Below, piece by piece: positions 41,916 to 60,764 of a stretch of DNA of 64,000 nt. The stretch's first letter is position 1. Every line of letters starts with the position of its first letter. This DNA comes from a virus (taxonomy: Duplodnaviria; Heunggongvirae; Uroviricota; Caudoviricetes): IMG/VR virus record IMGVR_UViG_3300022862_000263. One strand, written 5' to 3'. Both the position numbers and the translations under genes were made by a program. Below the pieces are notes generated by a model, which was given only the letters and a program-made list of their open reading frames with translations, was not told the DNA's origin and did no database searches.

Positions 41916-41950
41916 ATCATGTTCCTTTAGGGATGAGCGCTTGGCGATAG

Positions 41951-42451: not shown

Positions 42452-42454
42452 GTC

Positions 42455-43030
42455 TTAATTCAACCAGGGTAGACGGGAGGCAGCGATTTTCAGCGCATCT
42501 TGCAGATCGTTGGTGCTGTTGTCGACAATGCAGAGATGCTCCCCCAGGCGCTGGAACTCGGCGAGGAAGCGATTGCGGATGCTGTTGTCATCCAGAACCT
42601 TGTCCAGATCGCTTTTGCCACGGACAGTGATTCGATCCTGGCGAACAGACTCGTCGATGTTGATGAATATGGTGGCGTCGGGTTCATGGATGTCATAACC
42701 CATGCCTTTGTACACCAGATCAACGTCCATGCCGGCAACGCGGTGAGATACTACGGTGTCGATCAGGTAACGAACGCAGTAAACGTTGTGGGTCTTGAGC
42801 TTCTCTTTGATTCGCTCAGAGGCGTAGGCAACTGCCGCCAAGTAGAATAGGAAGTGGGCAGACTGCGACCGGTCTCTTACCTCACTGTCGAACATCTCTC
42901 GGGTTTCGCCGAAGGGGCCATCCGGAGTCTTGAAAAGAAAGCCGTTGGGATCGAGCTTGCAAAGCTGTTCCGCCAGGCTCGAAGTCCCAGAGCCATCAAG
43001 CCCGGTGATGACAACCAGTTTTCCAACCAT
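42455..43030 (-). CDS. P-loop nucleotide kinase, thymidylate-kinase-like
   Basis: 191 aa. Walker A ITGLDGSGTSS. Tmk-like LID/NMP-binding layout. 4-bp spacing to the flanking genes. Confidence 0.6.
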   Translation of the reverse strand: MVGKLVVITGLDGSGTSSLAEQLCKLDPNGFLFKTPDGPFGETREMFDSEVRDRSQSAHFLFYLAAVAYASERIKEKLKTHNVYCVRYLIDTVVSHRVAGMDVDLVYKGMGYDIHEPDATIFINIDESVRQDRITVRGKSDLDKVLDDNSIRNRFLAEFQRLGEHLCIVDNSTNDLQDALKIAASRLPWLN

Positions 43031-43033
43031 TGT

Positions 43034-44938: not shown

Positions 44939-45829
44939 ATGGCCATGAGTGAAGCCATGTCAAACAACCCTCTCGAAATTTTTGACTCCATTCGCAACGG
45001 CGCCGTGGTGCGCCGGCGCCTGCAATGGATCGAGGATCGCCTGTGGTGGGTTGGTGAGCTAAACCGCTCTGACCTCGTGCTGAGATTCGGAATCTCTCCA
45101 CCTCAAGCGACGAACGATTTTTCGCTCTATCAGAAGCTGGCACCGGACAACCTCAGGTATGACCCGAGGAAAAAGCTGTACGTGGCTGGTGAAGGGTTCG
45201 TGCCTCTTTTCCCTAAGGATCACGAGCTTTGGCTGAAGGACAATGCCACAGAGGACTCAAGCCTCAAGAGCGTCGACATGGTGGGTGTATCCTCGCTCAA
45301 GCGTGGGATCGATCCGGCATTGGTACGAAGCATCTCCATGGCTGCGAGGCACCGCATCCCACTTCGGATCGTGTATCAGTCAATGAAGGCGTCAAATCCA
45401 GAAGATCGTGTGATCAGTCCGCATGCCATCGTTGAGACTGAAGTGCGTTGGCATGTCCGGGCCTGGGATGAAAAGCGTCAGGCCTTTTTAGATTTGGTAC
45501 CCTCGCGGATTATCAAGGTCACTCCAGAGCCGGCTGCGACCTGGGTACCGCAGGAGCTCGATGAAGAGTGGAACCGAATGGTCGAGATCATCCTCGTCCC
45601 TTCAGCAAAGCTTTCTGAGAGCCAACGTCGCATTGCGGAAGGCGACTACCACATGATTGATGGCAGAAGGGTGCTGCAGGTGCGTGCCTGTATGGCGTAC
45701 TACCAACTCTCAGCGATGTATCTGGTTGACGCAGTGCGTTACCACGAAGGGCAGCCTGAAGAGCGTAACTTTGGAATCGCGGTGGAAAACTGGAAAGCTT
45801 TGCAGCCGCTGGTAATGGAGATGAACTGA
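44939..45829 (+). CDS. wHTH-WYL-domain transcriptional regulator (BrxR/CapW-like)
   Basis: 296 aa. N-terminal wHTH (LNRSDLVLRFGISPPQATNDF). WYL-domain signature ISPHAIVETEVRWHVRAWDEKRQAFLDLVPSRI. Divergent from the radical SAM gene. Confidence 0.6.
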   Translation: MAMSEAMSNNPLEIFDSIRNGAVVRRRLQWIEDRLWWVGELNRSDLVLRFGISPPQATNDFSLYQKLAPDNLRYDPRKKLYVAGEGFVPLFPKDHELWLKDNATEDSSLKSVDMVGVSSLKRGIDPALVRSISMAARHRIPLRIVYQSMKASNPEDRVISPHAIVETEVRWHVRAWDEKRQAFLDLVPSRIIKVTPEPAATWVPQELDEEWNRMVEIILVPSAKLSESQRRIAEGDYHMIDGRRVLQVRACMAYYQLSAMYLVDAVRYHEGQPEERNFGIAVENWKALQPLVMEMN

Positions 45830-46833
45830 TGGCGTTGACTTGGTCGGACTTGGCGATGATTCAAGAGCGCATGACGGAGTCGGCGGAGATTCGGTCAGCA
45901 GCCATTTTAGGAGCAGCGCCAGCCTCGGTATGGATTGCCTCCGGACTCGCGAAGATCTCCGCAGCCTATGGTGCGTCCTTGATCGAGCAATCCGTTGGGG
46001 CTCCCAGCCACCTGATTTCTGCCATGGACTACTGCGGAAAGCCGCTCTTGCGATCCCTCCCGGTACTGATCTCCATGAAGGGTCGTCATCAGGATGCCAT
46101 AAGTGTGGCCAAATCCATCGTCCATCGAAACTCGCCGGCGTCCGTCTTGATCACGGGGGATACCGATGGGCCTGCCGCACAGGTTCTCAACACGGGTGTC
46201 CAGGCATCGTGTGTGGTCTCAGCAGGATATCCGGCTCGAGATAGCAGGTTCGTGAATTGCGGCTCGATATTCATGCTTTCTGCGTTGGCCTATCAGCTGA
46301 ATAGGCAGGCCTTTGGCGATGATGTGATTGGCACAGTCGATAAGGGTAGCTTGGCGCAAGCGTTCTCACGAGCAGCGGAGGGTGCACATGCAATTGCTCA
46401 GGGTATCTCCACTACAGAATGCTGGGAACAAAAACAGCTCATCATCCTTGGTCAGGGGCTTGGATCAGAGCTGACATTGCCATGGCAATCGATCTTCGCA
46501 GAGGCGGGGATTCTGACTGCAACGTGCCTGGATCTGAAGGACTACACACACGGCGATCACCTTGCTGCCGTACGTTCAAATAATGCTATCTACCTGGTGA
46601 TTCAACAGCCAGGCACTGAAGACATGGTTCAGATTTTTAAATCTAGATTTACCGCGAGATTCCCAGTATTGGTGGCGCCGCTGGAGTCATCAGGGCCGAC
46701 GAGGTTCTGGGAGAATTTGTTCTACAGCTGCAACGTCGCTCATGCGCTGACTGACCTGCTTGGTTACGGTGGCCAGCGCCCACCAAAGGATCCAACTGTC
46801 CATAGCTGGCGAGGGTGGGGTAGTTTGTGTTGA
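45829..46833 (+). CDS. hypothetical protein, possibly double-SIS-domain-like. Translationally coupled to the WYL gene
   Basis: 334 aa. ATG overlaps the WYL stop (ATGA). Gly/Ala-rich Rossmann-like segments weakly reminiscent of SIS/AgaS-like proteins. Confidence 0.35.
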   Translation: MALTWSDLAMIQERMTESAEIRSAAILGAAPASVWIASGLAKISAAYGASLIEQSVGAPSHLISAMDYCGKPLLRSLPVLISMKGRHQDAISVAKSIVHRNSPASVLITGDTDGPAAQVLNTGVQASCVVSAGYPARDSRFVNCGSIFMLSALAYQLNRQAFGDDVIGTVDKGSLAQAFSRAAEGAHAIAQGISTTECWEQKQLIILGQGLGSELTLPWQSIFAEAGILTATCLDLKDYTHGDHLAAVRSNNAIYLVIQQPGTEDMVQIFKSRFTARFPVLVAPLESSGPTRFWENLFYSCNVAHALTDLLGYGGQRPPKDPTVHSWRGWGSLC

Positions 46834-47231
46834 ACATTGCGCTACAGGAACGCTTTCATCGTGCTTTCCATGGGCTGCGCAATCTAGTTTAGCCTGCCGG
46901 GCGCTTGCCCGCCTGAAAGGTTCAAGCTTGAAAATTTAGGCTATCTTGGCCGGGCCTGCCTTCGCATGTTGAATGACCTCTGCAGGAGCCACGCCCTAGT
47001 AATCTGCCACATGCTCAGAAAATACCTACGTCACTAGCCCACGACGTCCATCCACAAGGTGCTGATTGCTGGTTTACCTAGCTCAGCAGCATTCTTTTGA
47101 GAAAGTCGACTTGAATGGCCATGGCCGTACGATGCTTGGTGTCATTGACGTTAATCAGGCGGGTAGGTCTTGGTGAATTTGCTAAAGGTTTTGTAACCCT
47201 CTTGCTTCATCCCGCTGCCAAGGCGGCTCCT

Positions 47232-47271
47232 GATTCACAGATTCACAGATTCACAGATTCGCAGATTCGCA
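47232..47271. repeat. 5 x 8-bp tandem repeat (gattcaca x3, gattcgca x2)
   Basis: Perfect head-to-tail octamer repeats in the intergenic region upstream of nfeD. Confidence 0.8.
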
Positions 47272-47359
47272 GCCCTAACACGGGAGGCGGCAAAGCGAAA
47301 TATCTGAGTAAGGTTGGCTAGACAAAGCCGCTCGTATGGCTCCTAACAATAGGCGTATA

Positions 47360-47387
47360 TTGACAGAGCCGTAGAGTCCTGTAGATT
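47360..47387 (+). promoter_or_regulatory. sigma70-like promoter TTGACA-16-TAGATT upstream of nfeD-flotillin
   Basis: TTGACA at 47360-47365, TAGATT at 47382-47387. About 160 nt upstream of the 47546 start. Confidence 0.35.
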
Positions 47388-47545
47388 TCCCAGGGTGTAG
47401 GGGGCCTGGTGAGTCGTCGCAGAAGGGACGTCAGCCCAGCTCCATAGCTGCTTCTGAGCGGGGGTTAGCCCTGCGCAGCACTATTGGCGACTGTGGACGG
47501 TCTTGCCAACGCAGGTCGCTTGCCAACAAATCAAAGGGGCCTCAT

Positions 47546-48091
47546 TTGGAAAATCCTGCATTCATTGTTGCCATGGTCTCAACCATTGGCTTTGGCTTGT
47601 ACACGCTCGTGGCCAGTGTGCTCGGCGACCATCACAGCGGTAATGGCAGTCATCATGGCGGGCATGGCAGCGCAGAAGGTTGGGCCATGCTTGAGTACAT
47701 CTCAGTTCAAGCCATTTTGCTCGCCATGATGAGCTACAGCTGGAGCTGGCTGTACTGGGCAACAGTCACTAATGGGGTGCTCTTGCAAAGCGTCGCAACG
47801 CTGCTATCGGGCTCCGCAATGGTGGCTCTCTATGTTGGCGGCATGCGCCTGATCAAGAAGCTAAATACCCCTGAATCACATCCAGAATTTGAACCTGCGG
47901 TCGGTATGCAGGGCGTCGTTTACTTGACGATTCCGCCTGCCGGCGAAGGCTTTGGTCAGGTCACTCTCCGCGACCCACAGTTGGGTGACTTCCAGGTCAA
48001 TGCAACCTCCCATGAGGAGGAAATCGAATCAGGCAGTCTTGTCGTCGTCTCCGAGACAGGTCAGCTGAGTGTAAAAGTCCGTCGAGTTTGA
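47546..48091 (+). CDS. NfeD-family membrane protein (short form)
   Basis: 181 aa. N-terminal transmembrane helices plus a C-terminal OB-fold-like region. Immediately upstream of the flotillin gene. Confidence 0.6.
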   Translation: MENPAFIVAMVSTIGFGLYTLVASVLGDHHSGNGSHHGGHGSAEGWAMLEYISVQAILLAMMSYSWSWLYWATVTNGVLLQSVATLLSGSAMVALYVGGMRLIKKLNTPESHPEFEPAVGMQGVVYLTIPPAGEGFGQVTLRDPQLGDFQVNATSHEEEIESGSLVVVSETGQLSVKVRRV

Positions 48092-48149
48092 TCCTTCCCG
48101 CCTGCCGGGAAGCTGGCAGGCATTACTCTGCTATGTAGGTGGAACGCGA

Positions 48150-49637
48150 ATGTTAGATAACGCTGCAACGATCATGTTCTGGCTCCTCCCGGTGATCATT
48201 GTGATCGCCCTGGTGATGACGTATCTGAAGAACTACATCATCTGCCCGAACGACAAAGTTATGGTGGTTTATGGTGCCGGTTCCAGCTCGGCGCAAGGCG
48301 CGAAGATCATTCATGGTGGTGGGCAGCTCGTAGTGCCTTGGTTGCAGCGTTCTGCCTTCCTGAGCCTGAAACCCATGTCGATCCCTGTCGACTTGAAGGG
48401 GGCTTTGAGCGCCAACAACATCCGCGTGAACGTGCCGAGCCAATTCACGATCTCCATTGCGTACAAAGACCAGGCGCTGATGCAGAACGCGGTGCGTTAC
48501 CTGCTTGAGCAGACTGAGGCGCAAATTAAAACAACCGCTGGGGAAATCATTTTCGGCTCACTTCGATCCGTTGTTGCGACGCTCACAATCGAGGAGCTGA
48601 CGCGGAATCGCGATAAGTTCATCAATGCGATCAATGTCAACATTGACGCAGAGCTTAAAAAAATCGGCTTGACGCTGATCAACAGCAACTTGATGGACAT
48701 CACCGACGAATCCGGCTTTATCACTGCTATGGGGCAAAAGTCTGCGTCGGAAGCTGTGAATAAAGCCAACATCGAGGTTGCCGAACAAGAGCGTCTTGGT
48801 GCTATCGGTGTAGAGGAGAACAACAGTAAACGCAACATTAGTGTGGCTGAGCAGGAAACATTATCCAAAGTTGGTGTCAGTGCCGCTGAGCGCGACCGTG
48901 AAGTTCGTATTGCTGCGCTCAAAGCAGAAACACAAAAAGGTACCAACGACTCTCAGGCTGACATCGCCGACTCCAACGCTGCCCTCGCGATTCGAGAAGC
49001 TGATGCTCATGAAAAAGGCGAGGTGGCCAAGGCAAAGGCAGCGACTACTATCGCCAATGAGCAGCGCCTGGCAGAGCAGGCAGAGTTGTCCAAGCAACAG
49101 TTGCCTGCAGCTAACGTTGCAAAAGAGCAAAAGGTGATCGAGGCCGAGGCGGAAGCTGAGAAATCTCGCATCATCGCCAAAGGTGAGGCGGACGCTATTC
49201 TTGCCAAGTTTACTGCTGAAGCTAACGGCCTGAGATTGAAGTTAGAAGCCCAGGCGGAAGGCTACAGAAAGATCGTTGAGTCGGTTGGCGGCGATACTAA
49301 CGCGGCAGCTAAGCTCATGATGATTGAGCAGGCGACTGACATCGTCAGGATTCAGAGTGAGGCCCTGTCAAATCTGGTTATCGATCATGTAACTGTGTGG
49401 GACTCCGGATCAGGTAACGATGGTCTGCAAGGCTTCATTCGAAACTTCGCGTCTTCGCTTCCACCGCTACATGAGATCTGTAAACAAGCCGGTATTGAGC
49501 TTCCAGCCGGATTTATGGGGTCGCAGTTGAAAGATCCTAAACATGCAATTACCAGGGAGCCAGCGCAGGCAGCTACAGAACCAGAGTCAGCTGCTGCGTC
49601 GGAAGCGATTGATGAACTGCCTTTAAGTAAAGGTTGA
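48150..49637 (+). CDS. SPFH/band-7 flotillin-like protein (YqiK/FloT-like)
   Basis: 495 aa. N-terminal TM, SPFH domain, long Ala/Glu/Lys-rich coiled-coil (EA-repeat-like). Confidence 0.8.
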   Translation: MLDNAATIMFWLLPVIIVIALVMTYLKNYIICPNDKVMVVYGAGSSSAQGAKIIHGGGQLVVPWLQRSAFLSLKPMSIPVDLKGALSANNIRVNVPSQFTISIAYKDQALMQNAVRYLLEQTEAQIKTTAGEIIFGSLRSVVATLTIEELTRNRDKFINAINVNIDAELKKIGLTLINSNLMDITDESGFITAMGQKSASEAVNKANIEVAEQERLGAIGVEENNSKRNISVAEQETLSKVGVSAAERDREVRIAALKAETQKGTNDSQADIADSNAALAIREADAHEKGEVAKAKAATTIANEQRLAEQAELSKQQLPAANVAKEQKVIEAEAEAEKSRIIAKGEADAILAKFTAEANGLRLKLEAQAEGYRKIVESVGGDTNAAAKLMMIEQATDIVRIQSEALSNLVIDHVTVWDSGSGNDGLQGFIRNFASSLPPLHEICKQAGIELPAGFMGSQLKDPKHAITREPAQAATEPESAAASEAIDELPLSKG

Positions 49638-49655
49638 TTTCACTTACTTTGTATT

Positions 49656-49678
49656 AGCCGGCGAAAGCCGGCTTTTTA
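49656..49678 (+). terminator. rho-independent terminator after the flotillin gene
   Basis: agccggc-gaaa-gccggct followed by TTTTTAT. Confidence 0.7.
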
Positions 49679-49681
49679 TGT

Positions 49682-50395
49682 TTGCATGGTGATAAAATGA
49701 TTGAAAAGATTAAGATAACAGACTCACTGGACTTCTTTATGCGCAAATGGGTTGTTCATGAAATGTACTGCAACTTAAGTAATGCTTGGTCTTTTACTAT
49801 AAATAATGACGTAAAAAGCAGGATGACAAGGCAGATCTCGATTCAGATCGTTAAAATATATCGAGATCTTGAAAGTTTGATAAGTTCAGTAAATGATCTT
49901 CAAAAGTCGATAGAGCTTATTGGTGGTGATGCAGTAGAGGGTGTGATTAATGTTGAGCGGCATTATGATGTTTGTATAATTAGGTTTCGCAGGTATGATG
50001 AAATTATAAACTCATGCAAGCGTGAGCTTGTCGGGCCGAGTGATGCCCTATTGATCTTCCCTGAATTAAAATCAATGATAAGTAGGCTTACCTCTCAAGG
50101 TTCTAAATTATCTAGGATGTATGGGTTAAAGAGAAATATTATAATGCACGAGAGAAGTCATTCAATCCAGCTTGGAAGCGTCGCTATGATTCTTGACCTG
50201 ATTGATGAGTCAAGATCATCCGAGGTCTCGATGCATTTTGGGTTTGATAGCAAGCAGGATCTTATTCGTCAGGTAGTGAATAAGGCTATATCTGAATACA
50301 ATTTAATTCGAGAGCATGTTAACATAATTGTCGGCGAATTTAATTCGCTGTGTGATCATATGATGTTTGAGATCAACCATATTGAAGGTGGTTGA
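49682..50395 (+). CDS. hypothetical protein in low-GC segment
   Basis: 237 aa, AT-rich codon usage unlike the neighbours. Confidence 0.4.
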   Translation: MHGDKMIEKIKITDSLDFFMRKWVVHEMYCNLSNAWSFTINNDVKSRMTRQISIQIVKIYRDLESLISSVNDLQKSIELIGGDAVEGVINVERHYDVCIIRFRRYDEIINSCKRELVGPSDALLIFPELKSMISRLTSQGSKLSRMYGLKRNIIMHERSHSIQLGSVAMILDLIDESRSSEVSMHFGFDSKQDLIRQVVNKAISEYNLIREHVNIIVGEFNSLCDHMMFEINHIEGG

Positions 50396-50839
50396 TCTTA
50401 CGTTTATATTACTTTTGAATAATTTTGCGCCAGTAGGTAGCAGCATCAATCATCGATGGCTCGCATACTTGATAGACCTTCCTTGAATAGCTCTACCTCA
50501 AGGTAAGCAAGCGAAATAGTTCATCTGGCGAGGCATATACCGGCTACGTAAATCTTACGAGGTCTGACAAGGTATTCCTCACTCGGCAGAAAAAATACGA
50601 GAACGATGGCGAAGGAAATATTTGGGGGGATTTCCCAGGCGGGATCCACATCGCGCATCATCGTAATCCAAGAGAGCCTAAGGTCTTCTTCGATAGCGCA
50701 CCATCCCTAGGGGTAGAGGCCTCTAAACGCCAGGGAGTTGCGCTAAAAGGTCTTGATACTACTGTCCATAGCCTATAGCCTACGTGGCCATCCATCATGA
50801 TGGCCATCAGCCGCTAGATAAGATAAAGGCGAACCGCCC

Positions 50840-51538
50840 ATGGACGAGCAATCCGCTGCGCCGAAGAGACCCTTCAAGCCAAAACCCTACGATTCGCTGC
50901 TTGGCACCATGTCTGACCAAGATCTTGCGAATGCCACCGGTGTATGCAACCGAACCATTGGCGCTAGACGAAAACTCCTTGGGGTCGAGGCCTGGAGCGT
51001 GGAGGTTGCACTTACCCCGCATATGCACCTGCTAGGCATTCTTAGTGACAAAGAAATTTCAAATATCAGTGGGGTAGGAATTTCCAGCGTCACCAAGTAC
51101 AGGAAGGAAAACGACATCCATCCACATCCGTTGGCTGAATTCGTACCGCTGCTTGGGCATGTAACCGATGAGGACGTTGCCAGGGTTTCTGAAATGCCTT
51201 TGGCATTAGTGGAAAAGACTCGTTGCATACTTGGTATCGAGGAGCTGGTGGTTGAGCTCAGCGATCCGATCCATATCGACAATTACGAAGGCCCTCTTCT
51301 TGGCTTTGAATCGCTCCTCACGACACAAACTATCGTGGAGATTCACCGTGAAACTGGCATTCACTGCTCGATTATCGAGCGCCGACGTGACTTCTTGGAA
51401 CTGCCAGTATTTCAGCGCAAATCTAAGCTGGAACCTTACAAGCACCTTGTTGGCATTGTCCCAGTACCGCTGCTTGCAAAGCTCGTTGGTCTGTCAGGGT
51501 CAAGAGTGCGACAGTTGAGTAAGCCTACAGAAGATTGA
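50840..51538 (+). CDS. multi-HTH-repeat protein, paralog 1 (flanks the Abi gene)
   Basis: 232 aa. 3-4 tandem ~35-aa repeats of LLG.LSD.EI...GV....V..YRK (HTH-like). Paralogous to 53258..54073. Palindrome tggccatc-catcat-gatggcca lies just upstream (50793-50814). Confidence 0.45.
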   Translation: MDEQSAAPKRPFKPKPYDSLLGTMSDQDLANATGVCNRTIGARRKLLGVEAWSVEVALTPHMHLLGILSDKEISNISGVGISSVTKYRKENDIHPHPLAEFVPLLGHVTDEDVARVSEMPLALVEKTRCILGIEELVVELSDPIHIDNYEGPLLGFESLLTTQTIVEIHRETGIHCSIIERRRDFLELPVFQRKSKLEPYKHLVGIVPVPLLAKLVGLSGSRVRQLSKPTED

Positions 51539-52072
51539 GCCCTGGTCACTCGGCAATCAGAGCTGCTGCAGCTCGTCGCGCTTTCAGGAAATCGATCATC
51601 ATTCCCGGCGCTTGAACTTAGGTAGAAAACGCGTTTTGAGTTTCTCCGGTTGATTTGGGCAGGCTGACGATCTCGATTTCCTCCTAGAGATGCTCACGAC
51701 AAACTGGTGGTTCTAACAGATTGCCCCGAATCGCCACCCGCGAAGCGGCTACATGCTGAAAGGTGAAGCAGTCGCGCATCTGTTTCTGCAGCATCCCTAT
51801 CAGCGATACCCTATGGCCTGATTCAGGATGCGAATGCGCAGTGTCCATCTATCACCTCTTGACCTTGGCGAATTTACAGGTTGGAACTGCAGCTTGAAAG
51901 CGGGGATCGCCGCGTGAGGCGGCTTGGATGCGTGGGTAACGAGTCTTGTGTGTATTTCAGAAACGAAAACCCCGGCTCAAGGCCGGGGCGGGTGTTTCGT
52001 GGTCTTTGCAGGGAGTCGTAAGCTTTCGCTCATTGGAGCTCAGTGCCAACCGATTCTCAATCCTACGAGCGG

Positions 52073-52101
52073 TTGACACCGATGTCAACCCCCTTTATAC
52101 A
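52073..52101 (+). promoter_or_regulatory. sigma70-like promoter TTGACA-17-TATACA with overlapping palindrome gttgacACCGATgtcaac
   Basis: TTGACA at 52073-52078, TATACA at 52096-52101. Perfect 6-bp inverted repeat at 52072-52089 overlaps the -35. AGGAAG RBS, then ATG 52128. Confidence 0.5.
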
Positions 52102-52127
52102 GGCACCTTGCCAGTAGGAAGTCGAGC

Positions 52128-53039
52128 ATGCCGCACACAGTCCAGTATAGACCTCAGCTGATTGAACAGATTATCAGTTCCCACCGTATCGCGAGCTATA
52201 GCAAGGTATTTTCGACCAGCAATGATGCTGAGCTGGTGGGGGCCTACCTGTGGAACTCGCACGTTTGTGGTGTTCTCTACCCCCTGATCAGCGCGGCGGA
52301 GGTCACGTTGCGGAACTCGATTGACACCGTCCTGACGTCTGATCTTGGGAAATTTTGGTGGAAGGCAAAGACGCTTAAGTACAAGAGCTTCACCCCCGGA
52401 GGCCAGGTGCCCGACGCGGTCGCGAAACTGACCAAAAATTTCGGATCAGCCTTCAACACTGCCTGGTACGAGCGAAAAAGCCGGCAGGTCAGTGGGCAGC
52501 CAGACCACCAAGAGGTTGTATCCAAAACGGACTTCTCCACGTGGGAATTCGTTCTGGACAACGAATACATGGGTAACAACCTTATCTGGCCAAAGAACTT
52601 GGGGAGGGTTTTCAAAGGCCAATGGCCAACGAGTCAGGCGAGCGCCATGCTGGTCGGGTGCAAAGATCAGGTTGCGTTGGTAAGGAAGTTCCGAAATCGG
52701 GTCTTCCATCATGAGCCTGCTTGGAAGCGCTTCAACGTCAATGATGAGCATCAAGCGGTGGCCCACCTGCACGAAAAAATTGGCAAAATCACTGAGCTGA
52801 TCTCCTGGATTTCGCCAGAGAAGATCAATCTGCTTGAGAAGTCCGGGGCGATCAGAACTGCATACCGTGCCTGCACCGTAGCCGAAATTGCACGGTTCAA
52901 GTACCAGTCCAAGACGAGCACGGTTAACAGCATGGCTAAGCTCATCAAGGTCGCAGAGGCTGCAAGCGCTGGTAATGAGGTTATGAAAATCGCGGTATAT
53001 GGAAAGCGGAAGGCGGTCTATACCCTCCAGGCTGACTGA
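52128..53039 (+). CDS. Abi_2 family (AbiD/AbiF-like) abortive-infection protein
   Basis: 303 aa. FRNRVFHHEPAW matches the Abi_2 RNxxAHHxxxW signature. Size and layout are typical. Confidence 0.6.
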   Translation: MPHTVQYRPQLIEQIISSHRIASYSKVFSTSNDAELVGAYLWNSHVCGVLYPLISAAEVTLRNSIDTVLTSDLGKFWWKAKTLKYKSFTPGGQVPDAVAKLTKNFGSAFNTAWYERKSRQVSGQPDHQEVVSKTDFSTWEFVLDNEYMGNNLIWPKNLGRVFKGQWPTSQASAMLVGCKDQVALVRKFRNRVFHHEPAWKRFNVNDEHQAVAHLHEKIGKITELISWISPEKINLLEKSGAIRTAYRACTVAEIARFKYQSKTSTVNSMAKLIKVAEAASAGNEVMKIAVYGKRKAVYTLQAD

Positions 53040-53257
53040 TAGGTGCTCTGGCGGCCGCCACGAAGTTCTGCCTGCATCCAGGTATCAACCAGGCAAGTGG
53101 GCAAGCGGGCATCATCATTCAGCTCTCTTTAGGCTACGACGACTGCGCTGGCACAGGCTTCAGGCACTAGTAGCGAGGATGCGTCGCTATGGGATAATGA
53201 TCATGTTATATTGCCACCCCAAAAAGCCACTCCTGGTGCAAGGCTTCGCGACTAAAG

Positions 53258-54073
53258 ATGAGTCATACGGCTTTATCTGTAGATCAGTTCCCCGGCCTGG
53301 TTACCCATACCAACAGAGAAGAAGATTTACCCATGGGCGATAGAGCCTCTGATGTTCAAGACCTCAACGGCTACAACCCGCAAAGTTATCAACTTGGCGC
53401 TATGCCAGACCGTGTCGAAGCGGGGGCGATGAGGGAACCGCATCACGACAGGCAATTGCGGCTTGGCACCGCTGTGTGGGGAGCTCGGAGTAAGCTCAGT
53501 CCATATGAGTGGTTGGCTGGAATTTTAGGAGACAATCGCCTCTCGCGGATCAGTGGGTGGAGCAGCTCCAGCATCGCCAAATTTCGCAAGAAACATGGCA
53601 TTCAGTTTCACCCACTGCGAGACTTCGTGCCACTGCTTGGCTTGGTAGCAGACCAGGATGTTTCACGAGCCTCCTCCGTGCCCTTAGAGGTCGTGACCGC
53701 TCTCCGTCAGTATTTACGCGTGTACGAGTATGTGGCGGAGTCCGTCGATGAAGTCAAAATCGAGGATTTCCAGGGGCCGCTTCTCGGATTCGAATCGATG
53801 CTCACGACGAAGAACTCGGCGGAAATTTACCGTGAGTGTGGCATAAACCCCAACATCGTGGATCGCCGTCGAAAGCATCTTGGGCTGCCGTCTGTAGGGC
53901 TAAAAAGTAAGCTTGATCCATACAGGCACCTAGTAAACGTCATCTCGATCCCACTCTTGGCTAAGCTTTGCGGCATCACCGATCCCAGGGTGCGGCAGTT
54001 GATTAATGCTCAGGAGCGGTTGCATGCCCGCAAAAGTCCACTTGGAGATGGGCAGTTCGCAGACAGCTTGTAG
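53258..54073 (+). CDS. multi-HTH-repeat protein, paralog 2 (start possibly 53333)
   Basis: 271 aa. Shares FVPLLG.V.D.DV.R.S..PL, EDFQGPLLGFESMLTT, IVDRRRKHLGLP, KLDPYRHLV..I.IPLLAKL.G..D.RVRQL with paralog 1. Confidence 0.45.
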   Translation: MSHTALSVDQFPGLVTHTNREEDLPMGDRASDVQDLNGYNPQSYQLGAMPDRVEAGAMREPHHDRQLRLGTAVWGARSKLSPYEWLAGILGDNRLSRISGWSSSSIAKFRKKHGIQFHPLRDFVPLLGLVADQDVSRASSVPLEVVTALRQYLRVYEYVAESVDEVKIEDFQGPLLGFESMLTTKNSAEIYRECGINPNIVDRRRKHLGLPSVGLKSKLDPYRHLVNVISIPLLAKLCGITDPRVRQLINAQERLHARKSPLGDGQFADSL

Positions 54074-54178
54074 CCAGTGGCATCTGCGTTAAGCCATCCT
54101 TCGGCTAAGGTTGTCGATAGTGGTATGAGCACATGCTCCGGCCTCAGCCATCCAGGCGTGACACACAGAGAATTTAAA

Positions 54179-55258
54179 ATGCAGCAAACACTGATCCCGT
54201 TCGGTCTTCACCATGGGCGCTTAGTCCGCGCCATCGAGGTTGCGAACGGATTGGCTTGTGGGTGCCTGTGCCCTGGGTGTAACACGCCGCTGATCGCAGC
54301 CAATCGAGGTACCAAGAACGTCCACCATTTCCGACATGCTCAGTCGGTCGACTGCCGTTCTACGTACGAAGCCTCGTTGCACAAATTTGCTGTAGACCTG
54401 CTGATTGAGAGCAAACGCATCGTGCTGCCTGATTTTAGCCAGGTCATCAGCAACCGGACTCGGTACGGCGCAGAGGTAAAGAAAAGGGTAGCTTTCCCCG
54501 GTGCCCAGGCGGAGGCGACTCAGGCCAGCGCCGGCGTGATGATAAATGGCGTAACGCCGGATGTGGTCTTCGATGTGGGTGGGCACCAGCTCATCATCGA
54601 GGTGCGAGCATCCGCCAAAGTTGATGACCTCAAGCGGCACAAACTGAAGGCCTCCGAGCTGTCAGTGCTGGAGGTTGACCTTTCGACATTGGACATGAAG
54701 ACCATTTGTGAGCCGGAGCTCTTTGAGCGAGCTCTACTGGATGATCCTGGCAACAAGCGGTGGATACACTCGAGACGCGGTGAGCAGATGCTTAAAGCTG
54801 CGAGGTGTCAGTTGGCTGAAGACGTAAAGGCGATGGACGACGCTCATCGACAGAAGGCGCAGGCAATCGGCTTATCCTCAGTAGATGGTGGTACCAGGCC
54901 GACCATAGCAGCTTCGGTTCAGGGCAAGCCTCTGCGTGTGAGCCTGCCAGTTGATACCTCAAGGTCTGATAAGCAGGCTTGGCGAGAGGCAATTCAGGAG
55001 AGAGCCGGCGTCATCGCTGCGTCGATTCAACGTTCGGTAAATGAATGGGGCGGCAAGGCCATGCAATGTGAGAATTGCTTGATGGCTAGCCACCCAGACG
55101 CCGTCAGCTGCAGCTATTGCGGGGTGGCAAAAACCTTGAAGGCTGAGACCTTTACCAGGGACTACTCCAACACGGCTCTGGCCAGGCTGAGTTGCTCACC
55201 TCGTGTTGATCAATCTTATGAAAGAGCTCCAGTTTTACATGGTGTCCATGGAAAGTGA
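54179..55258 (+). CDS. CoiA-like competence-family protein (putative nuclease)
   Basis: N-terminus LIPFGLHHGRLVRAIEVANGLACGCLCPGCNTPLIAANRGTKNVHHFRHAQ matches the CoiA N-terminal C-x2-C...HF.H layout. The track ORF starts at 54077. 54179 is the more likely ATG. Confidence 0.5.
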   Translation: MQQTLIPFGLHHGRLVRAIEVANGLACGCLCPGCNTPLIAANRGTKNVHHFRHAQSVDCRSTYEASLHKFAVDLLIESKRIVLPDFSQVISNRTRYGAEVKKRVAFPGAQAEATQASAGVMINGVTPDVVFDVGGHQLIIEVRASAKVDDLKRHKLKASELSVLEVDLSTLDMKTICEPELFERALLDDPGNKRWIHSRRGEQMLKAARCQLAEDVKAMDDAHRQKAQAIGLSSVDGGTRPTIAASVQGKPLRVSLPVDTSRSDKQAWREAIQERAGVIAASIQRSVNEWGGKAMQCENCLMASHPDAVSCSYCGVAKTLKAETFTRDYSNTALARLSCSPRVDQSYERAPVLHGVHGK

Positions 55259-55789
55259 GTCGTATGTCGGCCAGAGCTTATGAAGCGACTACCGAGTAAT
55301 CGCCGCCACTCATGCGATATTTAGTCAACATCTTGGAATATCTGACCCTTCAGATAGGTGCTGTATTGTGAGATGCCACTGAATTTGCACATACCAACCC
55401 TGGCAATTGCGGCCAGAGCCTCATTCTTGATTACCTCAACCATCTCATCAGGGGCAGTGTATGAGATTAGACATCGTCGAGCGCTAGTACACGTTCAGAA
55501 AAGGACTGTAGCCACCTGCCGGTGTTGCTATCTTCATTAAAATTCTTGAGCTCTGATGAGATAGAAAAGTCCGGGCTGGTCTGTGCGGTTCGGAGCCTTG
55601 AGGACGCCATCTGTGGATTTTTATCTTTGCTCATGGAGCTTAACGCGACCTGACCTTACCGTTATCTAAATGCGCTTATAACCATTTGCCATCAAATTAG
55701 CAATCGATTGAAAATCACCGATTGGTGTGTTTGACCTACATCACTTTGGATATATAGAATTGACGTATAGGAAAAGTTAGTAGAGAAAA

Positions 55790-56401
55790 ATGAATAAAAG
55801 TAACGAATTTTACTACCACGGCTCCCCATGCTCTATTGATCAGTTTGATTACGCGTTTACAGGGCGTGGTCTGGATCAGCACGGCCCAGGATTTTACTTC
55901 TCAAGTAGTAAATCAGGCGCTTGTGCGCACACTGATGTAAATGATGTCGTGAAGGAGGCCGAATCTGAGATTTCGCCGACGCTCCACACAGTTCGACTTA
56001 ATCTCAAAAAACCTTTGCATGCCGACCATGTTCAGAAAATGACTGCCTCTCAGGTTGCACGCATTATGCGCTGCAGTCCCGTGCTTGTGGATAAGCTTTG
56101 GGACAGAGTGGATGTTGGTAGTTACGGTCTTGAATACTGCTTATCAAAGGTATCCAAGGAGTACGTATGGGAAGACGCCAGACTTCTCGACATACTTTGC
56201 CGGCTGTATGGCGATATCTTTGATGAAGACTGCGTTAAGGAGTTCGCCACCGCAGTGCGAGACGTTCTTGGATACGATGGTGCCACCTATCTGCACGAGA
56301 AGCAGAACATCATGGTTGCTTGGTTCCCTGACCAGATCGAGATCGTCAAGAGAACTCCCATGAGGCAACCGGATGAAGACCTTGAGCCCTGCGTAAGGTG
56401 A
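55790..56401 (+). CDS. putative ART-fold protein (H-Y-E class, DT/ExoA/Tpt1-like)
   Basis: 203 aa. YYHGSP...(22 aa)...GPGFYFSSS parallels ExoA YHGT...GFYIAG. Same pattern as the 27384..27965 protein. Confidence 0.4.
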   Translation: MNKSNEFYYHGSPCSIDQFDYAFTGRGLDQHGPGFYFSSSKSGACAHTDVNDVVKEAESEISPTLHTVRLNLKKPLHADHVQKMTASQVARIMRCSPVLVDKLWDRVDVGSYGLEYCLSKVSKEYVWEDARLLDILCRLYGDIFDEDCVKEFATAVRDVLGYDGATYLHEKQNIMVAWFPDQIEIVKRTPMRQPDEDLEPCVR

Positions 56402-56413
56402 TACCCTAGAAGG

Positions 56414-57439
56414 GTGCAGTGGTGGAGTCCAGAAATGCCTATTGAAAACGCAACCATCGACGAAATCCGTGACTACGTTCGTGGGGATCCGGACAGCAGG
56501 CCTCTCAAGTTTTTTGATGAGTCATTGCTTGAGCTAGTCAGTCGGTTTTCTTCTGGTCAGATAGACAGGTTGGAGCAGCTGTCGGGTAGCCCTGTGAAGC
56601 TGAGCCTGCAGCACCTGCACAAATTCATGATCGACCTGTCTTGGGCGTCATCGCGCCTGGAAGGCAATACATACGACTACCTCGACACCAAGCTGCTGCT
56701 GGAGGAGGGCATCAGGTCATCAATGCACAGCCTGGCTGAAGCCAAGATGATCATCAACCACAAGCACGCGATCACAGCAATGTCTGAAGGTGACCCCCTC
56801 ACCAGGGAGATGGTCTGCAGGATCCATAGCCTGTTGGCAGACGATGCTGGTGTTGAGGGGGAGGATCACTTCTTGCCGCCAGATAGGTGCGGACTCGTCA
56901 GAACCTATGAACCTTTATGGATCAGTGGTACCGCCTACAGCCCGGTGGTAGACCAGCCTGGTAAACCACCAGTCGTCAGTCCAGCTCTGGACAAGATCGT
57001 TCAAGTGGCAAATCTACTGCATCCATTCGATGCGTCGGTTTACTTACTGACCAGGTTGCCCTATCTGCAGCCGTTTAACGATTGCAATAAGCGAACCTCC
57101 AGGGTTATTACCAACGCTCCGTTGCTTGCGCGTGGATACCTGCCTATCAGTCTGAAGAACATCGAGAGACGTGACTACCTGTCTGGGGTGGTTGCCTTCT
57201 ACGAGCTTGGTGATAGCCGTCTGATGCAGCATGAGTTCCTGCGAGCGTTCATTGATTCACTGATGATCAATCGTTCTGTTCCGTTAGACGTCTCTATTGC
57301 CTATAGCAAAGATAAGACCTCGATCACCCAGGAGCTGATCTCCTACGTAAACGATGGAACTGAATCTGAAATTTTAGATAGGGTTTTTGCCCCCAAAGGC
57401 AGGTCGATAGGCACCAGCTCTGAGGGGCCAGAGCTGTGA
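56414..57439 (+). CDS. Fic/DOC-family protein with degenerate active-site motif
   Basis: 341 aa. QPFNDCNKRTSR sits in place of HPFxDGNGRxxR. A further partial HPFDAS lies upstream. Overall Fic-like length and helical layout. Confidence 0.5.
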   Translation: MQWWSPEMPIENATIDEIRDYVRGDPDSRPLKFFDESLLELVSRFSSGQIDRLEQLSGSPVKLSLQHLHKFMIDLSWASSRLEGNTYDYLDTKLLLEEGIRSSMHSLAEAKMIINHKHAITAMSEGDPLTREMVCRIHSLLADDAGVEGEDHFLPPDRCGLVRTYEPLWISGTAYSPVVDQPGKPPVVSPALDKIVQVANLLHPFDASVYLLTRLPYLQPFNDCNKRTSRVITNAPLLARGYLPISLKNIERRDYLSGVVAFYELGDSRLMQHEFLRAFIDSLMINRSVPLDVSIAYSKDKTSITQELISYVNDGTESEILDRVFAPKGRSIGTSSEGPEL

Positions 57440-58029
57440 CTCCATTTAGTGGAAGGTCGGTGGGAATTAGATTCGAGTTTACCGAAGAGCTTCCGTCGAG
57501 TGAATGTCCTCCAGGGCATGCTGGTGGAGCCCTGAGGATGTGGTTAGGGGGTACGCCAGTCTGGTGTGGGGCGGATGGACAACCAGTCTTGTGGACATGG
57601 CTGAGTTTCCTTGACGGCCTGGGTCGGACATGGAGGTGGCTTACCTGTGAGACCGCTTATCCAATCCCCATAACCCCTGAGCATATTGGGCTTCTTGACG
57701 AGGTTCTAGCCAATCGTTGGGATGGGATGGATGATGAGCAGCGCGACGGAGAGATGGATTTAATGTTCGATTTCAACCATCGACATAACCTTGCCCACCT
57801 TGTGCGTGGTATCAGTCTTCCACGGGTTATGGCTTTACGGTCAGGTGATGAAGTTGAGCTATGGTCACCATGCCTAAGTCGGCCAATCAGGATCGCGTTT
57901 GTTGAGTTCGAAGAGGAACTTACCAAGTTAGGCGATATACTCAGTCAGCTGACGATGCAGAGCTCCGCCGAAGCACCTGCGGCTGCCAGGCTGAGCTGGC
58001 AGAAAAGGGGCGGGTGTATCATTATTTGA
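57436..58029 (+). CDS. hypothetical Trp-rich protein, coupled to the Fic gene
   Basis: 197 aa. Start overlaps the Fic stop. Confidence 0.35.
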   Translation: MTPFSGRSVGIRFEFTEELPSSECPPGHAGGALRMWLGGTPVWCGADGQPVLWTWLSFLDGLGRTWRWLTCETAYPIPITPEHIGLLDEVLANRWDGMDDEQRDGEMDLMFDFNHRHNLAHLVRGISLPRVMALRSGDEVELWSPCLSRPIRIAFVEFEEELTKLGDILSQLTMQSSAEAPAAARLSWQKRGGCIII

Positions 58030-59038
58030 TAGCAATAGAGCGGTTGACGACGAAAAACCTTAGGCAGCCTTCGGCTGAATGGGCCGACCTGCCTGCATAG
58101 AGCCCCTATCCACAGATCAAGACGCAGTGTATCCGGGCGCAAGCAAAGCATTGCTTACACCTTCCAGAACTTCTACATTACGTAGCCACAGTCTGAATTC
58201 ATGGCCCCTTAAGCTGTGATCAGCTGAGCAATCGACACTCCACTGTCTGAGCGTATAGCCGGCGATCAGCCTGGGTACCGTAATTGAGATCAGGTCATCG
58301 ACCATTCCATAGTCGAGCCTTGTAACCTCAGGCCTTGGCTGATCGGGGTGAGGTACAAGCTCAAGCACTACCTTGGCGGAGCACTCTGTGTCCTTGGCGC
58401 CAGCCTCATGAGCTTCAACGCTCCCGCCATGATCAATCGCTGGATTTAAGATTCGGGTTATGACGAAGTCCCGAAACTCTTCAGATTTCCGGTCAAATGC
58501 CAGCGCAGACCGTTATCGACCAATGTGTGTGGAACGATGACGCACTCGCTCGACCCGTTCAGTGATTCGTACCTGATTTTAAGGGGGAGGCCCTGGAAGA
58601 TCGCTCGGGTGACGATGCCTGGGTACCGAGGTGTCCAATGCGGGCGCGGGGAATTGCCGGCACCCCGGCGCCAGGCGAAATCGTTGGCACACCGTCAGCA
58701 AACCCGTGGCTCAACCAGGTCAGCACGCGGTCTGGGTTGAAGGTGTAGAGTGGGGGAAATTCGTCTGAGATGAAGTGGTCTTAGCCCCGGCGTCGTATGC
58801 CATGTTCGTAGGCGCCAGCGAGGCATACAGTGCGAGATCTCGGTCAGCCTTGAATTTTATGGTGTTTTGACATACATTTGCGGGAGGAATGGCGCTCCTT
58901 CCCGCTCACGTAGGTTAAGGGGACTCCCCAGCGCTGCAGGACAACTGTGTACTCAACTAAGCCCTTGCCCTCAAGTGCCTGGATACATACGCGTGAGCCG
59001 TAGTTAGCTTTCATAAGCTTCCAGGACAAGGAGATGGT

Positions 59039-60727: not shown

Positions 60728-60764
60728 TTAGGATTTTAAATGTTGGCTGTTATTTGACTTTTAG

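What the first reader, a model, noticed from the sequence alone, without database searches (positions are those of the whole stretch)
50784..54073. Abi_2 (AbiD/F-like) abortive-infection gene sandwiched between two paralogous multi-HTH-repeat genes, each with palindromic promoter elements
The 303-aa protein carries the Abi_2 RNxxFHHxxxW signature. Its promoter (TTGACA-17-TATACA) is overlapped by a perfect palindrome gttgacACCGATgtcaac, a likely operator. On both sides lie paralogs (232 and 271 aa) built from three or four ~35-aa HTH-like repeats. They share long identical blocks with each other (EDFQGPLLGFES.LTT, KLDPYRHLV...PLLAKL.G....RVRQL). An 8-bp palindrome tggccatc/gatggcca precedes paralog 1. 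This could be a three-gene Abi system with dedicated DNA-binding partners, or an Abi gene inserted into a duplicated regulator locus. A ~590-bp non-coding stretch (51539-52127), with a hairpin at ~51973-52000, precedes the Abi promoter.
Basis: partly seen in the sequence, partly recalled or inferred. Interest (0 to 1): 0.6.

Follow-up and report, generated by a model that had tools for sequence, protein, structure and literature searches.

The report
AbiF-like toxin with hidden RNA partner
The middle gene is a known kind of single-gene anti-phage "suicide" nuclease (PD-T4-5/AbiF-like) dropped between two unrelated plasmid-type DNA-binding genes, and its real partner seems to be an unannotated 94-nt structured RNA on the opposite strand, probably its antidote.

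Summary
All the described features are in the sequence, but the three genes are not one system.

**The two flanking paralogs.** They are a lineage-specific duplicate of a five-HTH-unit family. Elsewhere that family is single-copy, mostly on Pseudomonas plasmids, and never next to an Abi gene. In one syntenic relative the slot between the paralogs holds a different gene on the other strand.

**The new result.**
- It has its own TTGACA-17-TAnnnT promoter, a 53-nt irregular hairpin and an intrinsic terminator.
- It accompanies the Abi gene down to about 40% protein identity, across Pseudomonas, Shewanella, Nitrosospira, E. coli, Achromobacter and Marinomonas.
- It is better conserved than the coding sequence.
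- It shows compensatory base changes: 9 of 25 pairs, 95.7% of cells paired, 0 of 500 shuffles.
- It is absent from Rfam.

By analogy with AbiF–AbiFr/RCd22, it is most likely an RNA antitoxin. This is a new variant of a known kind.

The parts
50785..50806 (.). Palindrome TGGCCATC-N6-GATGGCCA (it contains the perfect 12-mer CCATCATGATGG) inside the conserved upstream block of paralog 1. It is a candidate promoter or operator region of paralog 1 and not part of the Abi module.
   Evidence: Unique in the window; 4 of 100 shuffles contain it. The core block AGCCTATAGCCTACGTrGCCATCCATyATGATGG is conserved in L001 and L002, but the outer arm positions vary without compensation.
50840..51538 (+). Paralog 1 (232 aa): a protein of five three-helix (HTH-like) units. 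It belongs to a family otherwise found single-copy, mostly on Pseudomonas plasmids. It is a framework gene of the island.
51539..51957 (.). Context-specific non-coding filler between paralog 1 and the Abi module.
   Evidence: Shared only with L001, and interrupted there by 177-nt and smaller indels. Not shared with any other Abi locus. No Rfam match of note.
51958..52051 (-). Candidate 94-nt structured small RNA: the putative antitoxin of the Abi protein. 5'-GGUUGG... forms a 53-nt irregular hairpin with a conserved CAA bulge and an apical tetraloop. An ~11-nt linker follows, then an intrinsic terminator (stem 51989-51969, U-tail to 51958).
   Evidence: Nearly invariant upstream of Abi genes in unrelated contexts. 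RNAalifold gives 25 pairs, 9 compensatory. 95.7% of cells paired, 0 of 500 shuffles, slid controls <=46%. 43 G.U cells against 2 on the other strand. MFE z -3.49 against -1.06 for the other strand. Terminator on the minus strand. Covariance-model hit of 108.9 bits, the only one in the window.
52060..52088 (-). Sigma-70-type promoter of the RNA: -35 TTGACA (52088-52083), 17-nt spacer, -10 TAGGAT (52065-52060), 8 nt before GGUUGG.
   Evidence: Listed by the scan with 10 of 12 matches. The same TTGAC[AG]-17/18-TAnnnT sits at the same distance from GGTTGG in all 12 representative loci.
52072..52089 (.). Inverted repeat GTTGACA-CCGA-TGTCAAC. It equals the two -35 hexamers of the divergent RNA and Abi promoters placed back to back.
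   Evidence: Arms invariant and the 4-nt spacer variable in 7 Pseudomonas-type loci. The same form, TTGACG-N4-CGTCAA, occurs in L074 and L077, and CTGACG-N4-CGTCAA in L071. Unique in the window.
52073..52101 (+). Promoter-like element of the Abi gene, TTGACA-17-TATACA. Its -10 is weak, lacking the T at position 6.
   Evidence: Read from the sequence. Not listed by the scan because of the -10. The -10 is conserved as TATACA or TATATA in 6 of 7 close loci.
52128..53039 (+). PD-T4-5-like / AbiF-like HEPN protein (303 aa): the putative RNase toxin and abortive-infection effector.
53199..53222 (.). Conserved block TGATCATGTTATATTGCCACCCCA upstream of paralog 2. It is probably that gene's own promoter region and marks the right edge of the variable slot.
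   Evidence: Identical in the window, L001 and L002, while the sequence to its left is unrelated in L002.
53333..54073 (+). Paralog 2 (246 aa from the conserved ATG; the maximal ORF starts at 53258). It is a faster-evolving duplicate of paralog 1 and is always followed by a 359-aa gene with a weak CoiA_N-like match (54179-55258).
   Evidence: The conserved RBS and start AGAGAAGAAGATTTACCCATGG occur in three genomes. 85% and 70% identical to the L001 and L002 orthologs. Paralogs 1 and 2 form one clade in 100 of 100 bootstraps.

Best explanation
Window 51958-53039 is a compact, horizontally mobile, two-component abortive-infection/toxin-antitoxin module.

**Component 1.** A 303-aa PD-T4-5-like, AbiF-fold HEPN protein, the presumed RNase toxin. 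It is transcribed rightward from a weak promoter.

**Component 2.** A 94-nt structured RNA, transcribed leftward from a near-consensus promoter and ending at an intrinsic terminator. It most likely binds the protein and keeps it inactive until phage infection, as the ncRNAs AbiFr and RCd22 do for AbiF.

**Promoter layout.** The two -35 hexamers lie back to back, 4 bp apart. This produces the palindrome. It may also make occupancy of the two promoters by RNA polymerase mutually exclusive, favouring the RNA.

**The flanking genes.** The module landed in a variable slot between two paralogous five-HTH genes. These are framework genes of a mosaic defence island, come from a Pseudomonas-plasmid family of unknown function, and are not part of the system.

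**Shown:**
- family and fold of the protein;
- independence of the Abi gene from the paralogs;
- existence, strand, promoter, terminator and covarying structure of the RNA element, and its strict linkage to the gene.

**Inferred:**
- that the RNA is expressed;
- that it binds and neutralises the protein;
- promoter competition;
- the anti-phage phenotype of this particular copy.
For: **Protein**
- PADLOC PD-T4-5, 9.2e-87.
- HEPN Rx4H motif invariant.
- Pfam Abi_2 in 15 of 26 homologs, and precomputed PF07751 on homologs.
- PD-T4-5 is a validated single-gene Abi system and a distant AbiF/D relative (PMC9519451).

**Independence from the paralogs**
- L002 carries different cargo in the slot.
- Close Abi genes sit alone in six other contexts.
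- No Abi gene lies near 50 homologs of the paralog family.
- The Abi protein is 98% identical between the window and L001. The paralogs are 90% and 85% identical.
- The 90% cluster of the Abi protein includes the P. putida group. GyrA of this contig has no relative at >=90%.

**RNA**
- Homology among contexts starts at the terminator tail and ends at the Abi stop codon.
- RNA nucleotide identity is 91-98% where coding-sequence identity is 65-85%.
- 9 compensatory pairs; 95.7% of cells paired; 0 of 500 shuffles.
- Strand asymmetry: 43 G.U cells against 2.
- Independent single-sequence folds of divergent copies give the same architecture, z -3 to -4 in 4 of 5.
- A conserved promoter at a fixed distance in 12 of 12 loci.
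- Covariance-model hits of 65-111 bits only beside Abi genes. Nothing above 19 bits in about 300 kb of paralog-family loci or 417 kb of viral DNA.

**Precedent**
- AbiF is neutralised by an adjacent ncRNA through direct binding (PMC12373285; PMC12737573).
- In lactococcal AbiD/F genes the upstream sequence is more conserved than the gene and is needed to tolerate it (PMC13064643).
Against: - There are no expression data for the RNA.
- The element does not match the Rfam abiF motif RF03085 even at E<=10.
- It is on the opposite strand from the gene. Known AbiF ncRNAs are upstream on the same strand and co-transcribed.
- It contains one long hairpin, not two abiF motifs and not a tandem array.
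- The alignment has only 13 distinct sequences, seven of them close relatives, and the covariance model was trained on them.
- The plasmid clade that scores highest with the PADLOC PD-T4-5 model (L080-L082, 379-440 bits) is not clearly hit by the RNA model: at best 16 bits, in L082; L080 and L081 gave no hit. The link to the experimentally validated ECOR34 gene is therefore indirect.
- The window protein itself fails the Pfam Abi_2 HMM.
Confidence: 0.6

Rival explanations
1. One reading: the two HTH-repeat paralogs are dedicated partners (regulators or sensors) of the Abi gene. They bind the palindromes and form a three-gene defence system.
For: The trio is kept in a second genome, L001. The paralogs are plausibly DNA-binding. 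Palindromes exist upstream of paralog 1 and of the Abi gene.
Against: L001 is a close relative, so the shared trio is just synteny. L002 keeps both paralogs with a different, oppositely oriented 137-aa gene between them. The Abi gene with its palindrome occurs without any paralog in six other contexts. Fifty family loci are single-copy without an Abi gene. The two palindromes are unrelated in sequence. The Abi palindrome travels with the Abi module, not with the paralogs.
Confidence: 0.04
2. The conserved ~170-nt upstream block is DNA-level or cis regulatory only. In this reading it is a bidirectional terminator insulating the module, plus an operator and promoter region or a 5' leader of the Abi mRNA. 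No separate functional RNA is involved.
For: The hairpin could terminate transcription coming from either side. Mobile toxin genes benefit from insulation. The palindrome could bind a host or self-encoded regulator.
Against: Insulation does not explain near-invariance of the 60 nt between the hairpin and the promoter. It also does not explain the compensatory changes in a 53-nt hairpin. G.U pairs and GNRA/UNCG-type apical loops fit only the strand opposite to the gene. No conserved promoter lies upstream of the block on the Abi strand, because conservation starts 11 nt before the hairpin. A conserved promoter does point into the block from the other side.
Confidence: 0.1
3. The RNA is real but acts by base pairing. 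It could be a type I-like antisense regulator, as with divergently encoded IstR-1/TisB-type pairs (own knowledge). Its target would be Abi translation or mRNA stability, or host or phage transcripts. It would not act by binding the protein.
For: Divergent, non-overlapping sRNA-toxin gene pairs exist in type I systems (own knowledge). The RNA has an ~11-nt single-stranded linker and conserved bulges that could seed pairing.
Against: Predicted duplexes with the Abi translation-initiation region (-40..+60) are no better than those of shuffled RNAs in 8 loci. The toxin is a 303-aa HEPN protein, not a small membrane peptide. The solved homolog binds its RNA directly (8vz6).
Confidence: 0.12
4. The paralogs mark or create a cargo-exchange hotspot, for example as recombination or att-site proteins. 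In this reading the Abi module is there because of them.
For: The slot between them differs between L002 and the window/L001. In plasmid pNY5709-IMP a family member lies directly beside the tnsA end of a Tn7-like element.
Against: Cargo also varies in the other intergenic slots of the same island, between SPFH and paralog 1 and after the Fic operon. The variation is therefore general island mosaicism. The paralogs have no recombinase or transposase domain. The Tn7-like element faces the 5' end of the gene in a single record. The Abi module inserts into many unrelated sites.
Confidence: 0.08

Closest known systems
AbiF-ncRNA type III-like toxin-antitoxin systems (PbAbiF-AbiFr, PDB 8VZ6; C. difficile AbiFCd-RCd22)
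   Different: Here the RNA is on the opposite strand with its own promoter, so it is not an upstream co-transcribed leader. There is no match to the abiF motif RF03085. It has one 53-nt irregular hairpin instead of two 33-37-nt abiF motifs. Protein sequence similarity is undetectable by HMMER against PDB. Binding and neutralisation are untested.
PD-T4-5 (Vassallo et al. 2022, E. coli ECOR34 plasmid)
   Same: Full-length match to the PADLOC PD-T4-5 model. It is a single protein-coding gene, plasmid- or island-borne, and was described as Abi, TA-like and a distant AbiF/D relative.
   Different: The window protein belongs to a sister clade: 289 bits against 379-440 bits for the clade nearest the model. 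PD-T4-5 was described as a single component, and none of the passages I read in papers mentioning it reports an RNA partner. The validated clone carried 184 nt beyond the ORF on one side. That would be enough for such an RNA, but I could not inspect that sequence.
ToxIN / AbiQ-antiQ / CptIN / TenpIN (classical type III TA)
   Same: An endoribonuclease toxin used in abortive infection and held inactive by a cis-encoded RNA.
   Different: Those antitoxins are tandem repeat arrays upstream on the same strand, processed by the toxin. Here there are no tandem repeats and the RNA is transcribed divergently. The toxin fold also differs: HEPN here, ToxN/Kid-like there (own knowledge).
Uncharacterised HTH-repeat gene of Pseudomonas plasmids (e.g. 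NAH7 WP_151140438.1, downstream of the traC relaxase)
   Same: Paralogs 1 and 2 align full length at 32-42% identity. They share the same five-unit architecture.
   Different: The plasmid genes are single copy and lie among transfer, replication or establishment genes. Here there are two diverged tandem copies in a chromosomal defence island. The function is unknown in both settings. A mini-NAH7 carrying only traF-traC and mpfK-mpfR was used for conjugation assays, which suggests the gene is not needed for transfer.

Membership tests
PD-T4-5 (PADLOC PDLC04038) | Full-length match to the family HMM | tested here: met
   9.2e-87, 289 bits, residues 1-290 on profile positions 1-298 of 309. Sister loci score 227-309 bits. 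The clade nearest the model scores 379-440 bits.
PD-T4-5 (PADLOC PDLC04038) | A single gene is sufficient for abortive-infection defence against T4-like phage | not testable with these tools
   Known only for the ECOR34 gene, cloned with 184 nt of flank.
Pfam Abi_2 (PF07751) / AbiD-AbiF group | Match to the Abi_2 HMM | tested here: inconclusive
   The window protein has no hit at E<=1. 15 of 26 homologs, 46-89% identical, do hit, with a best E of 5.7e-7. Precomputed PF07751 is present on many homologs.
HEPN superfamily | Rx4-6H catalytic motif in a four-helix core | tested here: met
AbiF (structure 8VZ6) | Same overall fold as the RNA-bound AbiF dimer subunit | tested here: met
AbiF-type (type III-like) TA | A conserved structured ncRNA encoded next to the toxin gene | tested here: met
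   A 94-nt element with covarying structure lies beside every Abi gene >=40% identical that was examined.
AbiF-type (type III-like) TA | The ncRNA carries the abiF motif (Rfam RF03085) | tested here: not met
   No RF03085 match at E<=1 over 6.5 kb, nor at E<=10 over 201 nt.
AbiF-type (type III-like) TA | The ncRNA lies upstream on the same strand and is co-transcribed with the toxin | tested here: not met
   The strand is opposite: 95.7% paired against 83.0%, and 43 G.U cells against 2. It has its own promoter and a minus-strand terminator.
AbiF-type (type III-like) TA | The RNA binds and neutralises the toxin, and the toxin alone is toxic | not testable with these tools
   Inferred only from homology to 8VZ6 and RCd22.
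Classical type III TA (ToxIN-like) | The antitoxin is a tandem array of repeats | tested here: not met
   No tandem repeat lies in 51400-53400 apart from a trivial 8-mer x2.5 downstream of the gene.
HTH DNA-binding proteins (the paralogs) | Match to a curated HTH family, or a clear HTH fold | tested here: inconclusive
   There are no transposase families. The paralogs align end to end with the 230-250-aa plasmid homologs. No long flanking inverted repeats were found.

The most novel reading that the evidence does not exclude
PD-T4-5-like Abi_2 toxins of Proteobacteria are not single-gene systems. In this reading they are RNA-protein toxin-antitoxin modules built on a previously undescribed antitoxin RNA family. 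The RNA has one long bulged hairpin, is unrelated to the abiF motif at the sequence or covariance-model level, and is transcribed divergently from its own strong promoter. The back-to-back -35 boxes of the two promoters would set the antitoxin:toxin ratio by mutually exclusive polymerase binding. That would be a second, independently organised RNA solution for controlling the AbiF/Cas13-ancestor fold.
Probability: 0.45. Interest if true: 0.65.

Novelty: new variant of a known kind. Interest (0 to 1): 0.5.

Why it matters
PD-T4-5 is listed in defence-system catalogues (PADLOC, DefenseFinder-type tools) as a one-gene system of unknown mechanism. A conserved RNA partner would change several things:
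- It would change how the system is annotated, cloned and interpreted. Constructs lacking the RNA may be toxic or inactive.
- It would extend the AbiF-ncRNA paradigm, and with it the proposed Cas13 ancestry, to Gamma- and Betaproteobacteria with a different RNA and gene layout.
- It would add an uncatalogued structured RNA family found on clinical Enterobacterales plasmids and in Pseudomonas chromosomes.

The negative result also matters. Adjacency to paralogous HTH genes in a defence island was not evidence of a multi-gene system.

Tried and rejected
- **Rfam.** Scans over 6.5 kb at E<=1 and over 201 nt at E<=10 gave only chance or terminator-like matches, and no abiF motif.
- **blastn of the 181-nt upstream block against 72,556 plasmids.** The only hit was a 31-nt terminator-like match. 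Homologous elements on plasmids were found only by going through the protein.
- **Pattern scans of IMG/VR.** The strict pattern gave 0 hits. The loose pattern gave 52 chance hits, none confirmed by the covariance model.
- **Antisense model.** Duplex energies with the Abi translation start are no better than shuffled controls. A first script timed out.
- **Small-ORF reading of the RNA.** The conserved AUG opens frames of 2 to more than 25 codons in different loci, with non-triplet indels and no Shine-Dalgarno sequence (read from alignment A8). Rejected.
- **HMMER profile of the Abi family against PDB sequences.** Nothing found. Only fold comparison found 8VZ6.
- **The L002 137-aa gene and other variable island genes.** No PADLOC or Pfam hit, so I cannot say that the slot always holds defence genes.
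- **Genome and metagenome scans for the paralog family.** They returned only distant single-copy plasmid-type homologs. No further paired loci were found.
- **Tn7 attachment-site idea for the family.** It rests on one record with atypical orientation. Not pursued.
- **Organism.** It could not be named. GyrA has no relative at >=90% identity, and the contig is absent from the species-representative genomes.

Full report
**1. What is in the sequence.**

The three ORFs exist as described: 50840-51538 (232 aa), 52128-53039 (303 aa) and 53258-54073 (271 aa). The outer two are paralogs, 45% identical with E 4e-58.

The promoter-like TTGACA-17-TATACA is present, as are the inverted repeat at 52072-52089, the palindrome at 50785-50806 and a G+C-rich hairpin near 51969-51989. 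Both palindromes are unique in the 64-kb window; they occur in 0 of 100 and 4 of 100 shuffles.

Corrections:
- The inverted repeat has 7-bp arms around a non-palindromic 4-nt spacer.
- The -10 TATACA lacks the T at position 6 and was not listed by the scan. The scan instead listed a mirror-image promoter on the minus strand, TTGACA-17-TAGGAT, and a minus-strand terminator.
- The conserved start of paralog 2 is ATG 53333.
- The paralog model has five three-helix units.

**2. The middle gene.**

Pfam Abi_2 does not hit this protein. The PADLOC PD-T4-5 model matches it end to end at 9.2e-87.

PD-T4-5 is an experimentally validated, plasmid-borne, single-gene abortive-infection system. It has been described as TA-like and as a distant relative of AbiF/D (PMC9519451).

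- The HEPN motif R189-x4-H194 is invariant in 26 homologs.
- Fifteen of those homologs hit Abi_2 and thirteen weakly hit HEPN_Swt1.

**3. The flanking paralogs.**

The word-indexed protein search found only nine relatives. tblastn found the family in 114 plasmids, 107 of them Pseudomonas and 86 conjugative. It is always single copy and annotated as hypothetical. Examples:
- NAH7, downstream of the traC relaxase;
- MPF_I plasmids near the primase, coupling protein or SSB genes;
- after repA in a P. syringae plasmid;
- after virB11.

A profile search of 1.84 billion representatives gave 2324 hits. Only 33 are below 1e-30. The distant hits are long proteins made of many weak HTH matches.

Paralogs 1 and 2 from three genomes form one clade against the plasmid homologs in 100 of 100 bootstraps. 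This is a lineage-specific duplication, and paralog 2 evolves faster.

**4. Are the three genes a system? No.**

- The trio recurs only in L001, a close relative with the whole island in synteny.
- In L002 the same island keeps paralog 1 (84% identical) and paralog 2 (70%). Between them lies a 137-aa gene of unknown function on the other strand.
- The sequences of L002 and the window become alignable again only at a conserved block 110 nt upstream of paralog 2.
- Other intergenic slots of the island also differ among the three genomes.
- Fifty family loci from plasmids, genomes and metagenomes have one copy and no Abi gene within 8 kb.
- Abi genes 62-89% identical to the window's lie alone in six other contexts. 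Some are next to integrases. Others sit between housekeeping genes such as hrpB, oprD or ubiD.
- The Abi protein is the best-conserved gene between the window and L001, at 98% against 85-97% for the other shared island genes.
- The Abi protein falls in a 90%-identity cluster with P. putida-group proteins. The contig's GyrA has no relative at >=90%.

The Abi gene is therefore a recently transferred cassette.

**5. The unexpected part: a conserved divergent RNA gene.**

I aligned the upstream regions of Abi genes from these unrelated contexts. Homology begins abruptly at window 51958 and runs to the start codon. It ends at the stop codon on the other side.

Within this block, 51958-52051 is almost invariant. 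Its nucleotide identity to the window is 91-98% where the coding sequences are 65-85% identical and the proteins 61-89%.

Recognisable homologs lie in the same position next to proteins only 41-53% identical. These come from a Shewanella ANA-3 plasmid, a Nitrosospira plasmid, E. coli and Edwardsiella plasmids, Achromobacter, Marinomonas and a metagenomic element.

Read on the strand opposite to the gene, each copy has the following parts:
- It starts with GGUUGG, 8-9 nt downstream of a TTGAC[AG]-17/18-TAnnnT promoter. This holds in 12 of 12 representatives.
- It forms a 53-nt irregular hairpin. The apical loops are GAAA, GGUA, GCAA or UCCG in different species, and a CAA bulge is conserved.
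- It ends in a G+C hairpin followed by a U-tract.

Evidence for the structure and the strand:
- RNAalifold predicts 25 pairs, 9 with compensatory double changes.
- 95.7% of cells are paired, with 26 double-change cells. None of 500 shuffles reaches this, and slid controls give at most 46%.
- The strand is fixed by 43 G.U cells against 2, and by 95.7% paired against 83.0%.
- Folding energy agrees: z -3.49 against -1.06.
- Five divergent copies fold on their own into the same shape.
- A covariance model scores 65-111 bits beside every such Abi gene. It scores nothing above 19 bits in about 300 kb of paralog-family loci or 417 kb of viral contigs.

The element is not in Rfam, is not a tandem array, and does not encode a conserved peptide.

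The 'hairpin' is the RNA's terminator. The 'operator palindrome' is the pair of -35 hexamers of the RNA promoter and the Abi promoter placed back to back. The arms are invariant and the 4-nt spacer is free.

**6. Mechanism.**

In 2025 AbiF was shown to be a type III-like toxin. It is neutralised by an adjacent ~100-nt ncRNA that binds the HEPN active site. The examples are RCd22 in C. difficile and AbiFr with PbAbiF, PDB 8VZ6.

For lactococcal AbiD/F genes, the upstream sequence is more conserved than the gene and is needed to tolerate it.

The window protein shares the fold and the same conservation signature. I therefore propose that the 94-nt RNA is its antitoxin.

An antisense mechanism is not supported. 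Duplexes with the Abi translation start are no better than shuffled controls.

The near-consensus RNA promoter, the weak Abi promoter and the 4-bp spacing of their -35 boxes suggest constitutive RNA excess and possibly promoter competition. This last point is inference only.

**7. Comparison and novelty.**

The protein is a new member of a known family. The paralogs belong to an uncharacterised plasmid family and are bystanders.

The RNA is the novel element. The principle matches AbiF-ncRNA, but three things differ:
- it is on the opposite strand with its own promoter;
- it has one long hairpin rather than two abiF motifs;
- it has no RF03085 match.

None of the passages I read in the papers that mention PD-T4-5 describes an RNA partner. 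The primary AbiF/Cas13 paper (Zilberzwige-Tal et al. 2025) is not in the library, so prior description cannot be excluded.

**8. Caveats.**

- There are no expression or binding data.
- The alignment has 13 distinct sequences, seven of them close relatives, and the covariance model was trained on them.
- The plasmid clade closest to the PADLOC PD-T4-5 model (L080-L082) is not clearly hit by the RNA model. Generality across all PD-T4-5 genes, including the validated ECOR34 gene, is open. The ECOR34 clone did include 184 nt of flank.

Noticed in passing
window 44939-58029; L001 and L002 whole loci: The surrounding island is a mosaic. Conserved framework genes are interleaved with slots whose cargo differs among three related genomes. 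The framework genes are BrxR/WYL plus a 334-aa gene, an NfeD-like 181-aa gene plus SPFH/flotillin, paralog 1, paralog 2 plus a 359-aa gene with a weak CoiA_N match, and ART-PolyVal plus Fic plus a 197-aa gene. L002 adds MNT/HepT and a Wadjet-like JetB cluster.
   Followed up: partly
window 54179-55258: A 359-aa gene always follows paralog 2 (89-95% identical in L001 and L002). It has only a sub-threshold CoiA_N zinc-finger-like match. It may form an operon with paralog 2. Its function is unknown.
   Followed up: partly
window 71-3676: Type I-F CRISPR-associated genes (Csy3 at 7.9e-59, Csy1-like) lie at the left end of the window.
   Followed up: no
window 14126-17137: A HipA-family kinase toxin gene (14126-15379) lies next to a 569-aa protein with a Shedu SduA_C domain (15428-17137). 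Both lie just upstream of gyrA (18142-20937). The defence genes are therefore chromosomal.
   Followed up: no
window 41112-44920: A minus-strand cluster holds three genes: a 628-aa protein with a faint radical-SAM match, a thymidylate-kinase-like protein hitting PADLOC PDC-M51B and VakA, and a PDEase-like protein. It lies divergent from the BrxR/WYL regulator and is a possible candidate defence system.
   Followed up: no
window 59000-62200: A low-GC patch (about 0.40 against 0.52-0.56 around it) holds a 562-aa protein with a weak GNAT match and a 468-aa protein with a weak dUTPase-like match. It looks like a separate recent acquisition.
   Followed up: no
L007 (pNY5709-IMP) 1-8705: A homolog of the paralog family lies directly beside the tnsA end of a Tn7-like element (TnsA, TnsB, TnsC and two TniQ genes) on a 637-kb Pseudomonas megaplasmid.
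   Followed up: no
L082 1315-1381; L078 1234-1328; L081 upstream of 326: More distant PD-T4-5-clade genes also have terminator-like hairpins about 100-180 nt upstream of the start codon, and L078 and L082 give weak covariance-model hits (19 and 16 bits). This hints at other, diverged RNA partners. In L081 the RNA may be on the same strand as the gene.
   Followed up: partly
window 18142-20937 versus 52128-53039: GyrA of this contig has no relative at >=90% identity among about 15 billion proteins, so the host is an unsampled lineage. The Abi protein, by contrast, clusters at >=90% with P. putida-group proteins, and many sources mislabel it 'CAAX protease'.
   Followed up: partly
window 51577-51840: The filler between paralog 1 and the Abi module carries a 177-nt insertion and smaller indels relative to L001. 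A non-conserved 54-codon minus-strand ORF (51684-51848) lies there. It is probably decaying sequence from an earlier occupant of the slot.
   Followed up: no
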